DNA of 64,000 bases, from the NCBI RefSeq assembly GCF_000027125.1, contig NC_017626.1. The stretch is one strand, 5' to 3'. Shown piece by piece: positions 9,001 to 12,000 of this stretch. The stretch's first letter is position 1; every line of letters starts with the position of its first letter. The position numbers are program-made. The stretch comes from Escherichia coli 042 (lineage in GTDB: Bacteria; Pseudomonadota; Gammaproteobacteria; Enterobacterales; Enterobacteriaceae).

Positions 9001-12000
9001 GCGCCGCCGCTTCTGCCAGAACGGTAATGTTCTCCAGCAGACGTTCAATCTCTTCACGGATAACGTTCGGGTAACGCAGACGTTCCAGAATGGCAAACTG
9101 GATGTTGCGAATAGCGTCGAGTTTTTCGAATCGCTCGCCAGGTTCCAGTCCTTCAGCTAAAGCGACCAGCAGATTAGTGATACCAGCAGAAGCCGAGAGG
9201 ACAACTAAACGTACGTTGGCATCAGAAAGCACAATATCAGCGCTGCGGTTCATGGCGTCAAAATCAGCTACGCTGGTACCGCCAAATTTGGAGACAACAA
9301 TTTCAGACATAACTACCTCGTGTCAGGGGATCCATTTTCAGCCTTGGCACAAGGGAAGAGCGGAAGACGGGTGGGCGCAGAGCGATACTTCGCTACTATT
9401 TTCACCCAGAAGTGCTCCACCACTTGCGAAACGCCCGACTGCGAACGCTTCTGGTGACAACCCAGGGGATTCAGCCCCTGTAGCCGATGATGAACGTGGC
9501 CAGCCGTTCAATCACCTCGGCGATGCACCCCCTCAGGTGTTATCACAGGACTGGCTCCTCCAACACCGTTACTTGGGCAACGCGCCTCTTCTGGCCTGCG
9601 CTAGCGCAGGTAGTACATTTATAAATAAAGGGTGAGCGGGGCGGTTGTCAACGATGGGGTCATGCGGATTTTTCATCCACTCCTGGCGGTCAGTAGTTCA
9701 GCTAATAAATGCTTCACTGCGCTAAGGGTTTACACTCAACATTACGCTAACGGCACTAAAACCATCACATTTTTCTGTGACTGGCGCTACAATCTTCCAA
9801 AGTCACAATTCTCAAAATCAGAAGAGTATTGCTAATGAAAAACATCAATCCAACGCAGACCGCTGCCTGGCAGGCACTACAGAAACACTTCGATGAAATG
9901 AAAGACGTTACGATCGCCGATCTTTTTGCTAAAGACGGCGATCGTTTTTCTAAGTTCTCCGCAACCTTCGACGATCAGATGCTGGTGGATTACTCCAAAA
10001 ACCGCATCACTGAAGAGACGCTGGCGAAATTACAAGATCTGGCGAAAGAGTGCGATCTGGCGGGCGCGATTAAGTCGATGTTCTCTGGCGAGAAGATCAA
10101 CCGCACTGAAAACCGCGCCGTGCTGCACGTAGCGCTGCGTAACCGTAGCAATACCCCGATTCTGGTTGATGGCAAAGACGTAATGCCAGAAGTCAACGCG
10201 GTGCTGGAGAAGATGAAAACCTTCTCGGAAGCGATTATTTCCGGTGAGTGGAAGGGTTATACCGGCAAAGCAATCACTGACGTAGTGAACATCGGGATCG
10301 GTGGTTCTGACCTCGGCCCGTACATGGTGACCGAAGCACTGCGTCCGTACAAAAATCACCTGAACATGCACTTTGTTTCTAACGTCGATGGGACTCACAT
10401 CGCGGAAGTGCTGAAAAAAGTAAACCCGGAAACCACGCTGTTCCTGGTAGCCTCTAAAACCTTCACCACTCAGGAAACTATGACCAACGCCCATAGCGCG
10501 CGTGACTGGTTCCTGAAAGCGGCAGGTGATGAAAAACACGTTGCAAAACACTTTGCGGCGCTCTCAACCAATGCCAAAGCCGTTGGCGAGTTTGGTATTG
10601 ATACTGCCAACATGTTCGAGTTCTGGGACTGGGTTGGCGGCCGTTACTCTTTGTGGTCAGCGATTGGCTTGTCGATTGTTCTCTCCATCGGCTTTGATAA
10701 TTTTGTTGAACTGCTTTCTGGCGCACACGCGATGGACAAGCATTTCTCCACCACGCCTGCCGAGAAAAACCTGCCTGTCCTGCTGGCGCTGATTGGCATC
10801 TGGTACAACAATTTCTTTGGTGCGGAAACTGAAGCGATTCTGCCGTATGACCAGTATATGCACCGTTTCGCGGCGTACTTCCAGCAGGGCAATATGGAGT
10901 CCAACGGTAAGTATGTTGACCGTAACGGTAACGTTGTGGATTACCAGACTGGCCCGATTATCTGGGGTGAACCAGGCACAAACGGTCAGCACGCGTTCTA
11001 CCAGCTGATCCACCAGGGAACCAAAATGGTACCGTGCGATTTCATCGCCCCGGCTATCACCCATAACCCACTCTCTGATCATCACCAGAAACTGCTGTCT
11101 AACTTCTTTGCTCAGACCGAAGCGCTGGCGTTTGGTAAATCCCGCGAAGTGGTTGAGCAGGAATATCGTGATCAGGGTAAAGATCCGGCAACGCTTGACT
11201 ACGTGGTGCCGTTCAAAGTGTTCGAAGGTAACCGTCCGACCAACTCCATCCTGCTGCGCGAAATCACTCCGTTCAGCCTGGGTGCGTTGATTGCGCTGTA
11301 TGAGCACAAAATCTTTACTCAGGGCGTGATTCTGAACATCTTCACCTTCGACCAGTGGGGCGTGGAGCTGGGTAAACAACTGGCGAACCGTATTCTGCCA
11401 GAGCTGAAAGATGATAAAGAAATCAGCAGCCACGATAGCTCGACCAATGGTCTGATTAACCGCTATAAAGCGTGGCGCGGTTAATTAAATAACCTTAATA
11501 AAAATGCCGACGTTATGTCGGCATTTTTTATCAGATAAATCCCCTTGTCTGTGATTTAACGGAAATCATGCTGTGAGGTTAATCCTAAAATAAATTTTTA
11601 ATCGTGATTGATTTCGGAAAATACGTAGGTTGATTATTTTTGATTCTATTTTAACTTTTTGATTTTTAATCTTATTTATATATAAGTTGAAACTTATATT
11701 TGATATTCATTCCAATTATCCTAAAACCCCATCGCTAATTCCCCACACCGTAATTCGCATGCTTTAGTTGTGTATACTCGATCCCGCCCGAAATGTTTTT
11801 GGGTAAATCTCCATTCATTCAATGAAGGGAAATTGTTATGAAAAAAGTTCTGTATGGCATTTTTGCCATATCTGCGCTTGCGGCGACTTCTGCGTGGGCT
11901 GCACCTGTACAGGTGGGCGAAGCAGCAGGGTCGGCAGCAACGTCGGTTTCGGCGGGGAGTTCCTCCGCGACCAGCGTCAGCACCGTAAGCTCGGCGGTGG

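What the first reader, a model, noticed from the sequence alone, without database searches (positions are those of the whole stretch)
9400..9615. Lysine riboswitch in the lysC leader
The roughly 320-nt leader between the lysC promoter and start codon carries the conserved L-box aptamer sequence (AGAGGCGCGTTGCCCAAGTAACGGTGTTGGAGGAGCCAG...GGTGAAAATAG on the minus strand). This is a known element; it is listed so the untranslated region is accounted for and not mistaken for a small ORF region.
Basis: partly seen in the sequence, partly recalled or inferred. Interest (0 to 1): 0.2.

Follow-up and report, generated by a model that had tools for sequence, protein, structure and literature searches.

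The report
E. coli lysC lysine riboswitch
This is the well-studied lysine-sensing RNA switch in front of the E. coli aspartate kinase gene lysC, which shuts the gene down when lysine is plentiful; it is real, correctly identified and already known.

Summary
The finding is correct and ordinary. Rfam's Lysine riboswitch model (RF00168) matches window 9598..9402 on the minus strand over its full length: 99.5 bits against a threshold of 30, E = 2e-26. RefSeq annotates exactly these 197 bases as 'riboswitch' upstream of lysC. Window 9250-9828 is 100% identical to E. coli K-12 MG1655, the sequence used in published experiments.

In 68 distinct gammaproteobacterial lysC leaders fetched here, the five-helix aptamer fold shows strong compensatory change, and the L2-L3 loop-loop contact covaries.

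Mechanism, from the literature: lysine binding closes helix P1. My folds and conservation are compatible with this but do not prove it. The platform is too invariant within Enterobacterales to covary.

Two side observations:
- A hairpin directly 5' of P1 (9610..9595), not in the Rfam model, is conserved with covariation.
- The aptamer is cleanly missing upstream of lysC in all five Citrobacter species sampled and in some Enterobacter-labelled and Yersinia genomes.

Novelty: already known.

The parts
9617..9651 (-). lysC promoter: -35 hexamer TTGACA at 9651..9646 and an AT-rich -10 region TTTATTTATAAAT at 9629..9617.
   Evidence: Read. The block is conserved across Enterobacteriaceae, including species that lack the aptamer. 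The simple promoter scan did not call it, because no -10 hexamer meets its rule. Assignment as the promoter follows from the published start-site numbering and is an inference.
9616..9616 (-). Inferred transcription start (+1, G). This is K-12 MG1655 coordinate 4233539.
   Evidence: PMC10946432 numbers from the transcription start and places G309 at the AUG. The AUG is at 9310..9308. The start site was not measured here.
9595..9610 (-). 5' hairpin 'P0' (+7..+22): CCUGCG-CUAG-CGCAGG. It ends 1 nt before helix P1 and lies outside the Rfam consensus structure.
   Evidence: Predicted free energy is -9.9 kcal/mol. In 65 distinct leaders, 63% have a stem of at least 4 bp ending within 2 nt of P1. 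In 32 Enterobacterales, 84% of cells pair against 74% in shuffles, with 26 double-change cells against 8.7 (0 of 500 shuffles reach this); slid controls give 10-51%. G-U pairs occur, which points to RNA-level pairing.
9402..9598 (-). Lysine aptamer (+19..+215): five-way junction of helices P1 to P5.
   Evidence: RF00168, 99.5 bits, E = 2.4e-26. The RefSeq 'riboswitch' feature has the same ends. Covariation: 91.7% of cells pair against 73.0% in shuffles, and 37 of 49 pairs show changes on both sides.
9588..9593 (-). P1 5' strand, CAGAAG (+24..+29).
   Evidence: Rfam alignment. Helix 1 is 99.5% paired across 68 distinct sequences.
9407..9412 (-). P1 3' strand, CUUCUG (+205..+210). In the lysine-free state it is part of the alternative antisequestering (anti-P1) helix.
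   Evidence: Rfam alignment. Unconstrained and P1-blocked folds pair +190..+214 with +244..+268.
9308..9401 (-). Expression platform (+216..+309), from the end of the aptamer to the start codon.
   Evidence: Literature model. It contains two nearly invariant blocks in 30 Enterobacterales, GCTCTTCCCTTGTGCCAAGGCTGA and CCTGACACGAGGT, separated by a spacer of about 5 to 80 nt.
9351..9380 (-). C-rich, G-poor stretch (+237..+266), CUGCGCCCACCCGUCUUCCGCUCUUCCCUU. It holds the published RNase E Site1 (+250..+253 = 9367..9364, UCUU) and the proposed Rho-utilisation (rut) site.
   Evidence: Composition is C 0.40-0.42 and G 0.20-0.23 in 40-nt windows at +221..+280. The position of Site1 and the rut site near +240 are from PMC10946432.
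9348..9361 (-). Switch segment GCUCUUCCCUUGUG (+256..+269). It can pair either with the 3' part of the aptamer (GGAGC and GCAAG.GG; gene ON) or with the Shine-Dalgarno block (gene OFF).
   Evidence: Folds. In 74% of 66 leaders the best partner of the aptamer's 3' end and the best partner of the Shine-Dalgarno region overlap by at least 4 nt. The energies are not better than shuffles, so this is suggestive only.
9316..9329 (-). Shine-Dalgarno block CCCCUGACACGAGG (+288..+301); the Shine-Dalgarno sequence GAGG is at 9319..9316.
   Evidence: CCUUGUG (+263..+269) is complementary to CACGAGG (+295..+301). This helix is 93% paired in 30 Enterobacterales but shows no covariation.
9308..9310 (-). lysC start codon AUG (+307..+309). 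G309 (window 9308) is the published pause and Rho/NusG-dependent termination site.
   Evidence: PMC10946432.
7961..9310 (-). lysC coding sequence, lysine-sensitive aspartokinase III (449 aa): the regulated gene.
   Evidence: NF006570, 767 bits against a cut-off of 455. RefSeq annotation.

Best explanation
The region is the 5' leader of E. coli lysC and contains a lysine riboswitch that turns the gene off.

**Layout.** Transcription starts at about window 9616 (minus strand). A short hairpin (P0, 9610..9595) is followed by the 197-nt lysine aptamer (9598..9402). The aptamer is a five-way junction of helices P1 to P5, held together by an L2-L3 loop-loop contact.

**Low lysine.** The 3' strands of P5 and P1 (+190..+214) pair with the C-rich platform segment (+244..+268). 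This antisequestering helix occupies the segment that would otherwise cover the Shine-Dalgarno sequence, and it buries the RNase E and Rho entry sites. lysC is therefore transcribed and translated.

**High lysine.** Lysine binds in the junction and locks P1. The platform segment is released. CCUUGUG (+263..+269) pairs with CACGAGG (+295..+301) and hides the Shine-Dalgarno sequence. The now single-stranded C-rich stretch around +240..+260 is cut by RNase E and loaded by Rho, which terminates at the pause at G309 and further inside the ORF.

**What is shown here.** Family membership, aptamer fold with covariation, the kissing loop, gene context, identity to K-12, and the C-rich composition.

**What is taken from the literature.** Lysine dependence, Shine-Dalgarno sequestration, RNase E cleavage at Site1 and Site2, and Rho/NusG termination at G309.

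**What is inferred.** The exact base pairs of the two platform states. My folds give them, but thermodynamics and comparison cannot discriminate between alternatives.
For: - Rfam RF00168: 99.5 bits, E = 2.4e-26, full length. It is the only such hit in the window.
- RefSeq annotates the same 197 nt as a riboswitch upstream of lysC. The 501-nt query is found in 5425 of 5426 complete E. coli genomes, at 99% identity or more in 5420.
- Window 9250-9828 is identical to K-12 MG1655.
- lysC identity.
- All 18 lysC leaders in a taxonomically spread sample, from Enterobacterales to Vibrio, Shewanella, Colwellia and Pseudoalteromonas, carry RF00168 at 75-106 bits.
- Covariation on 68 distinct sequences: 91.7% of cells pair against 73.0% in shuffles; 693 double-change cells against 222 (0 of 500 shuffles reach this); slid controls give 41-48%.
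- Invariant columns cluster at the helix junctions: GAAGAGG.GC, GCC.AG, UGUCA, UG..G.
- The L2-L3 kissing loop covaries. Median duplex energy is -7.1 kcal/mol for a leader's own loops against -3.8 for loops swapped between species, Mann-Whitney p = 9e-19. In E. coli the pairing is AGCCAGU with GCUGGC.
- Platform: a C-rich, G-poor zone at +221..+280. An alternative helix +190..+214 / +244..+268 appears in free and P1-blocked folds. The Shine-Dalgarno sequestering helix is 93% preserved in 30 Enterobacterales. In other orders the Shine-Dalgarno sequence and its upstream complement change together, for example UCUCCUUA with AAGGAGA in Pseudoalteromonas and CUCUUCCU with AGGAAGA in Colwellia.
- Experiments reported in PMC10946432 and the work it cites: lysine-dependent repression of 2- to 8.5-fold; Rho/NusG termination at G309 rising from 31% to 56% with 1 mM lysine; dependence on Site1 (+250-253); effects of the rne-131 and rho-R66S mutants. 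The Rho termination score for lysC is 6.1 (PMC5499598).
Against: - My own tests of the platform are weak. The unconstrained minimum-free-energy fold of the leader does not reproduce the aptamer; its z-score is only -2.2.
- With coding sequence included, the Shine-Dalgarno region is predicted to be paired in both contexts.
- Duplex energies of the switch segment with the Shine-Dalgarno region or with the aptamer's 3' end are no better than shuffles (median z -0.3 and -0.9).
- Within Enterobacterales the platform is nearly invariant, so there is no covariation for either state. A competing local hairpin, CCUUG/CAAGG, is as well conserved (91%).
- The two primary papers (Caron 2012; Rodionov 2003) are not held in the library. 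The published pairing scheme is therefore known to me only through the 2024 paper's description.
- The transcription start is taken from that paper's numbering, not measured.
Confidence: 0.95

Rival explanations
1. A lysine riboswitch of the Bacillus type: lysine binding lets an intrinsic terminator hairpin form in the leader, and transcription stops before lysC without help from other factors.
For: This is the mechanism of the best-studied family members, such as B. subtilis lysC (stated). The aptamer here belongs to the same family.
Against: No terminator-like site lies on the minus strand between the aptamer and the start codon. The only two sites called in 9200-9900 are on the plus strand (9381-9394) or upstream of the promoter (9865-9851). 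No hairpin followed by a U-run is visible in +216..+306. In vitro, full-length transcript predominates with or without lysine unless Rho is added.
Confidence: 0.02
2. The leader works through a translated small ORF or leader peptide (attenuation), or encodes a small protein, and the RNA-family match is incidental.
For: Mechanical ORFs overlap the region: 57 aa (TTG, 9511..9338, minus strand) and 181, 45 and 67 aa on the plus strand.
Against: None has a Pfam match reaching the gathering score. Substitutions in related leaders preserve base pairing rather than a reading frame. Loop lengths vary by non-multiples of three. The CM score is 70 bits above threshold.
Confidence: 0.01
3. Lysine control of lysC is exerted mainly at the promoter by a DNA-binding regulator, and the riboswitch is a minor or redundant layer.
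For: [quoted passage not shown] The promoter-upstream block ATGAAAAATCCGCATAA..CGTTGACA is strongly conserved, also in Citrobacter and Enterobacter-labelled species that have lost the aptamer. So those species presumably manage without the riboswitch. From my own memory, not checked here: ArgP is reported to mediate lysine-sensitive activation of lysC.
Against: With a heterologous lacUV5 promoter the leader alone still gives 2- to 8.5-fold lysine repression, and a construct without the riboswitch gives none. The aptamer is retained in 83 of the 120 loci fetched, and in all but one of the 5426 E. coli genomes. This rival is an added layer rather than a true alternative.
Confidence: 0.02

Closest known systems
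E. coli K-12 lysC lysine riboswitch (Rfam RF00168; Caron et al. 2012; Ghosh et al. 2024, PMC10946432)
   Same: It is the same element. Window 9250-9828 is 100% identical to MG1655 4233173-4233751. The gene, aptamer ends and RefSeq annotation are the same.
   Different: Nothing differs in sequence. I add only comparative observations: the P0 hairpin and lineage-specific aptamer loss.
B. subtilis lysC L-box / lysine riboswitch (Sudarsan 2003; Grundy 2003; PMC6614840)
   Same: The same aptamer family, ligand and regulated enzyme, and an OFF switch that works through P1 stabilisation.
   Different: The Bacillus platform is an intrinsic terminator. None is present here. The E. coli platform hides the Shine-Dalgarno sequence and exposes RNase E and Rho sites. 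The alternative helix here reaches further into the aptamer, into the P5 3' strand. This agrees with the remark in PMC13273304.
Thermotoga maritima lysine riboswitch aptamer (crystal structures, Serganov 2008 / Garst 2008; cited from memory)
   Same: A five-helix junction with lysine bound in the junction core and an L2-L3 kissing loop. Here the junction nucleotides are invariant and L2-L3 covaries.
   Different: There is no structure of the E. coli RNA. P5 in E. coli carries a longer, variable insert (alignment).
E. coli thiC and ribB riboswitches (TPP, FMN) that control Rho loading
   Same: Ligand-dependent exposure of a C-rich rut site inside the expression platform, with termination at a pause near the start codon.
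   Different: A different aptamer and ligand. According to the literature, lysC additionally uses direct RNase E cleavage in the same stretch.

Membership tests
Lysine riboswitch (Rfam RF00168, L-box / LYS element) | Covariance-model score at or above the curated gathering score (30 bits) over the full model. | tested here: met
   99.5 bits, E = 2.4e-26, model positions 1-182 of 182, not truncated. Reproduced in the whole-window scan.
Lysine riboswitch (Rfam RF00168, L-box / LYS element) | Five helices (P1 to P5) around one junction, supported by compensatory changes. | tested here: met
   49 pairs in 6 helix segments. 91.7% of cells pair against 73.0% in shuffles. 37 pairs show changes on both sides. 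Slid controls give 41-48%. The alignment was fitted to the model, which favours the structure, but the MAFFT alignment A1 shows the same compensations by eye.
Lysine riboswitch (Rfam RF00168, L-box / LYS element) | Conserved junction core nucleotides: J1/2 AGAGGNGC, J2/3 GCCGA, J4/5 UGUCA, J5/1 GGAG. | tested here: met
   All are present in the window sequence (alignment, upper-case consensus positions). They are invariant or nearly so in 23 gammaproteobacterial leaders.
Lysine riboswitch (Rfam RF00168, L-box / LYS element) | L2-L3 loop-loop (kissing) tertiary contact. | tested here: met
   E. coli AGCCAGU pairs with GCUGGC at -9.9 kcal/mol. Across 69 leaders the median energy is -7.1 for a leader's own loops against -3.8 for swapped loops, p = 9e-19, with different sequences in different lineages.
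Lysine riboswitch (Rfam RF00168, L-box / LYS element) | Location in the 5' leader of a lysine biosynthesis or transport gene, on the same strand. | tested here: met
   The aptamer ends 91 nt upstream of the lysC AUG on the minus strand. The arrangement is the same in the 22 related loci scanned with Rfam that have a hit.
Lysine riboswitch (Rfam RF00168, L-box / LYS element) | Direct, selective binding of L-lysine, and lysine-dependent gene control. | not testable with these tools
   Reported for this exact sequence: lysine-dependent repression and Rho termination (PMC10946432). Sequence identity to K-12 is shown.
Lysine riboswitch (Rfam RF00168, L-box / LYS element) | Expression platform with two mutually exclusive pairings coupled to P1. 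| tested here: inconclusive
   The candidate helices exist and are preserved (93% and 75% of cells paired). They show no covariation within Enterobacterales, and their energies do not exceed shuffles. A rival local hairpin is equally conserved. Support comes from the literature and from cross-order co-variation of the Shine-Dalgarno sequence and its complement, seen by eye.
Terminator-type (transcription attenuation) lysine riboswitch, as in B. subtilis lysC | A G+C-rich hairpin followed by a U-run between the aptamer and the start codon, overlapping the P1 3' strand. | tested here: not met
   No minus-strand terminator-like site lies in 9308..9401. No lysine-dependent termination occurs without Rho in vitro.

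The most novel reading that the evidence does not exclude
The hairpin directly 5' of P1 (P0, window 9610..9595) may be a functional part of gammaproteobacterial lysC riboswitches that the Rfam consensus leaves out. It is conserved in position, with compensatory changes and G-U pairs, across Enterobacterales, Pseudoalteromonas, Shewanella and the Rheinheimera group.

It could stack on P1 and bias the ligand-dependent closing of P1. It could also act as a 5'-terminal stem-loop that shields the transcript from 5'-end-dependent RNase E attack, so that decay depends on the riboswitch-gated internal sites.

I could not check whether the primary E. coli papers already draw or test this hairpin.
Probability: 0.3. 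Interest if true: 0.3.

Novelty: already known. Interest (0 to 1): 0.08.

Why it matters
The finding accounts for a 306-nt untranslated leader that might otherwise be mistaken for coding or unexplained sequence. It marks one of the few E. coli riboswitches, and one that combines three output layers: translation, RNase E decay and Rho termination.

Nothing here changes that picture. The side observations could be useful to people who study this switch. The aptamer-less Citrobacter and Yersinia leaders, which keep the promoter and ribosome-binding site, are natural deletion variants. The conserved P0 hairpin is a testable addition to the model.

Tried and rejected
1. Plain thermodynamic folding of the whole leader or of the aptamer alone does not recover the Rfam fold and is barely better than shuffles (z = -2.2 and -1.7). 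I rejected it as a test of the aptamer.

2. Folding with the aptamer enforced produced a long-range pairing of the 5' end ACUACCU (+3..+9) with AGGUAGU (+299..+305) next to the Shine-Dalgarno sequence. I checked related leaders. Kluyvera keeps ACUACCU but has GAGGUUAAU, and most others lack either half. I treat it as chance.

3. Predicted Shine-Dalgarno accessibility in 'ON' and 'OFF' sequence contexts did not differ, because the Shine-Dalgarno region pairs with early coding sequence in both. Not informative.

4. Duplex energies against shuffles for the switch segment are not significant.

5. Covariation of the platform helices within Enterobacterales is uninformative, because the blocks are invariant.

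6. Reading Caron 2012 (PMC3528543) and Rodionov 2003 (PMC290268) failed; they are not held in the library.

7. A literature search for lysC riboswitch loss in Citrobacter found nothing in the held library.

8. I considered that the palindromic P0 might be a DNA operator. This is unlikely, because complementarity is kept through different sequences and through G-U pairs.
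Full report
**Observation.**

Rfam's Lysine riboswitch model RF00168 matches 9598..9402 (-) over all 182 model positions, with 99.5 bits (gathering score 30) and E = 2.4e-26. It is the only such match in the 64-kb window.

The ORF that follows (9310..7961, minus strand) is lysC. It matches NCBIfam NF006570, lysine-sensitive aspartokinase 3, at 767 bits against a cut-off of 455. The divergent neighbour at 9829..11484 (+) is pgi.

**Source and annotation.**
- A 501-nt query (9250-9750) is found in 5425 of 5426 complete E. coli genomes, at 99% identity or more in 5420. RefSeq annotates 'riboswitch | lysC' under it.
- In one such record the riboswitch feature has exactly the ends of the Rfam hit.
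- Window 9250-9828, the start of lysC plus the whole lysC-pgi spacer, is 100% identical to K-12 MG1655 4233173-4233751. The published experiments therefore apply to this sequence without qualification.

**Coordinates.**
PMC10946432 numbers from the transcription start and places G309 at the AUG. The AUG is at 9310..9308, so +1 is the G at 9616 and the leader is 306 nt. In this numbering:
- The aptamer is +19..+215.
- P1 is CAGAAG (+24..+29, 9593..9588) paired with CUUCUG (+205..+210, 9412..9407).
- The published RNase E Site1 (+250..+253) is UCUU at 9367..9364.
- The Shine-Dalgarno sequence GAGG is at 9319..9316.

**Comparative test of the aptamer.**
A cheap DNA-pattern scan of one-genome-per-species contigs, using the back-translated LysC motif KFGGTxVADF, returned 120 loci.
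- Rfam found RF00168 upstream of the gene in all 18 loci of a taxonomically spread sample, at 75-106 bits. It found it in 4 of 17 loci of a second sample that I had chosen because simple motifs were missing.
- From 23 aptamers (alignment A1) I built a covariance model using the Rfam structure and searched all loci. 83 loci carry the aptamer.
- On the 68 distinct aligned sequences, 91.7% of cells form standard pairs against 73.0% in column shuffles. 37 of 49 pairs show changes on both sides. 693 cells are double changes against 222 expected (0 of 500 shuffles reach this). Sliding the 3' partners by 1-3 columns drops pairing to 41-48%. The alignment was fitted to the model, which favours the structure, but the same compensations are visible in the MAFFT alignment.
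- Invariant columns sit at the helix junctions. In the crystal structures, cited from memory, these junctions form the lysine pocket.
- The L2-L3 kissing loop, a hallmark tertiary contact of this family, also covaries. E. coli has AGCCAGU with GCUGGC, Pantoea ACCGU with ACGGU, Rheinheimera GCUAU with AUAGC, and Colwellia CCACA with UGUGG. The median energy is -7.1 kcal/mol for a leader's own loops against -3.8 for loops swapped between species (p = 9e-19).

**Mechanism.**
The literature model is as follows.
- Without lysine, an antisequestering (anti-P1) stem forms. Translation proceeds, and the RNase E and Rho sites are buried.
- With lysine, P1 forms and the Shine-Dalgarno sequence is sequestered.
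- RNase E then cuts at Site1 and Site2.
- Rho, with NusG, loads on a C-rich site near +240 and terminates at the G309 pause and further inside the ORF.

My analysis is compatible with this.
- The leader is C-rich and G-poor at +221..+280 (C 0.40-0.42, G 0.20-0.23).
- Free and P1-blocked folds pair +190..+214 with +244..+268. That helix uses the 3' strands of both P5 and P1. This agrees with a 2026 remark that the aptamer-platform overlap of the E. coli type reaches further into the aptamer than in B. subtilis.
- CCUUGUG (+263..+269) is complementary to CACGAGG (+295..+301).
- No intrinsic terminator is present on the minus strand, so the Bacillus-type mechanism is excluded.

My tests do not independently prove the platform model.
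- Predicted Shine-Dalgarno accessibility does not differ between contexts.
- Duplex energies do not beat shuffles.
- In 30 Enterobacterales the two platform blocks, GCTCTTCCCTTGTGCCAAGGCTGA and CCTGACACGAGGT, are almost invariant. The sequestering helix (93% paired), the anti-P1 helix (75%) and a rival local hairpin CCUUG/CAAGG (91%) therefore all lack covariation.

Two observations are suggestive.
- In 74% of 66 leaders the same segment is the best partner of both the aptamer's 3' end and the Shine-Dalgarno region.
- In other orders the Shine-Dalgarno sequence and its upstream complement differ together.

**Both strands and ORFs.**
Four mechanical ORFs overlap the leader: 181, 45 and 67 aa on the plus strand and 57 aa on the minus strand. 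None has a Pfam match reaching the gathering score. The substitution pattern preserves pairing, not a reading frame.

**Side observations.**
1. *P0 hairpin.* A hairpin at +7..+22 (9610..9595, CCUGCG-CUAG-CGCAGG, -9.9 kcal/mol) ends 1 nt before P1. The Rfam model starts inside its 3' strand and does not include it. A stem in this position occurs in most gammaproteobacterial leaders, with unrelated sequences. In 32 Enterobacterales it is 84% paired against 74% in shuffles, with 26 double-change cells against 8.7 (0 of 500 shuffles reach this) and slid controls of 10-51%. G-U pairs argue for RNA-level rather than DNA-level symmetry.
2. *Aptamer loss.* The aptamer is absent upstream of clear lysC orthologues in five Citrobacter species, three Enterobacter-labelled genomes, two Yersinia species (a third, Y. 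nurmii, has it), a Xenorhabdus, an Actinobacillus MAG and others. In Citrobacter the promoter and the Shine-Dalgarno block are retained, and the junction lies at a CTGCGC motif that occurs twice in the E. coli leader, at +8 and +237. This is consistent with a deletion between direct repeats. Enterobacter sp. Bisph1 keeps a decayed remnant. The Yersinia loss has different breakpoints. No paper in the held library mentions this.
3. *Second lysC-like gene.* Several Enterobacteriaceae carry a second lysC-like gene without the aptamer.

**Verdict.**
The element is the known E. coli lysC lysine riboswitch. Interest is low. The only new material is comparative and peripheral.

Noticed in passing
window 9595-9610 (minus strand; +7..+22 of the lysC leader): A hairpin (CCUGCG-CUAG-CGCAGG) ends 1 nt before helix P1 and lies outside the Rfam RF00168 consensus. 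It is conserved in position, with compensatory and G-U changes, in most gammaproteobacterial lysC leaders. Its function is unknown. It might stack on P1 or protect the 5' end.
   Followed up: partly
L004, L014, L083, L094, L099 (Citrobacter); L101, L103, L007 (Enterobacter-labelled); upstream of lysC: The lysine aptamer is missing although the lysC promoter, part of the platform and the Shine-Dalgarno block are conserved. In Citrobacter the junction falls at a CTGCGC motif that is repeated at +8 and +237 of the E. coli leader, which suggests deletion between direct repeats. L007 keeps a decayed remnant.
   Followed up: partly
L046, L092 (Yersinia artesiana, Y. thracica) versus L093 (Y. nurmii): Two Yersinia species lack the aptamer upstream of lysC and a third has it. 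The breakpoints differ from the Citrobacter case, and a TTGACA lies just upstream of the retained CCUUGU remnant. This suggests an independent loss with a relocated promoter.
   Followed up: partly
L005, L008, L015, L024, L029, L042, L047, L054, L071, L076, L086, L095, L114: Many Enterobacteriaceae carry a second lysC-like aspartokinase gene. The reading frame upstream of KFGGTSVADF translates as TRIYP.., and there is no lysine aptamer. L114 gives a weak 15.9-bit match to my model just upstream. The context and role of this paralogue were not examined.
   Followed up: no
window 9652-9700 (minus strand), upstream of the lysC -35 hexamer: The block ATGAAAAATCCGCATRAYCCC..CGTTGACA is strongly conserved across Enterobacteriaceae, including aptamer-less species. 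It may be the promoter-level regulatory DNA element mentioned in the literature. The regulator was not identified here.
   Followed up: no
window 11493-11641 (minus strand), just downstream of pgi: Rfam RF02053 (STnc430, enterobacterial sRNA) matches at 88 bits with a terminator-like 3' hairpin. The same family sits downstream of pgi in Citrobacter, Enterobacter-labelled and Kluyvera loci.
   Followed up: no
window 51943-52083 (-); 19175-19245 (+); 59321-59664 (+): Other Rfam hits in the window are sraL (153 bits) and five copies of naRNA4/REP-type elements, four of them in tandem at 59321-59664.
   Followed up: no
window 9611-9614 with 9312-9318 (leader +3..+9 and +299..+305): The extreme 5' end ACUACCU is perfectly complementary to AGGUAGU between the Shine-Dalgarno sequence and the AUG, and it pairs in the aptamer-enforced fold. 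The complementarity is not kept in Kluyvera or most other leaders, so it is probably chance.
   Followed up: yes
E. coli genome collection: One of the 5426 complete E. coli genomes has no match to the lysC leader query, one genome has two copies, and one copy lies on a plasmid.
   Followed up: no
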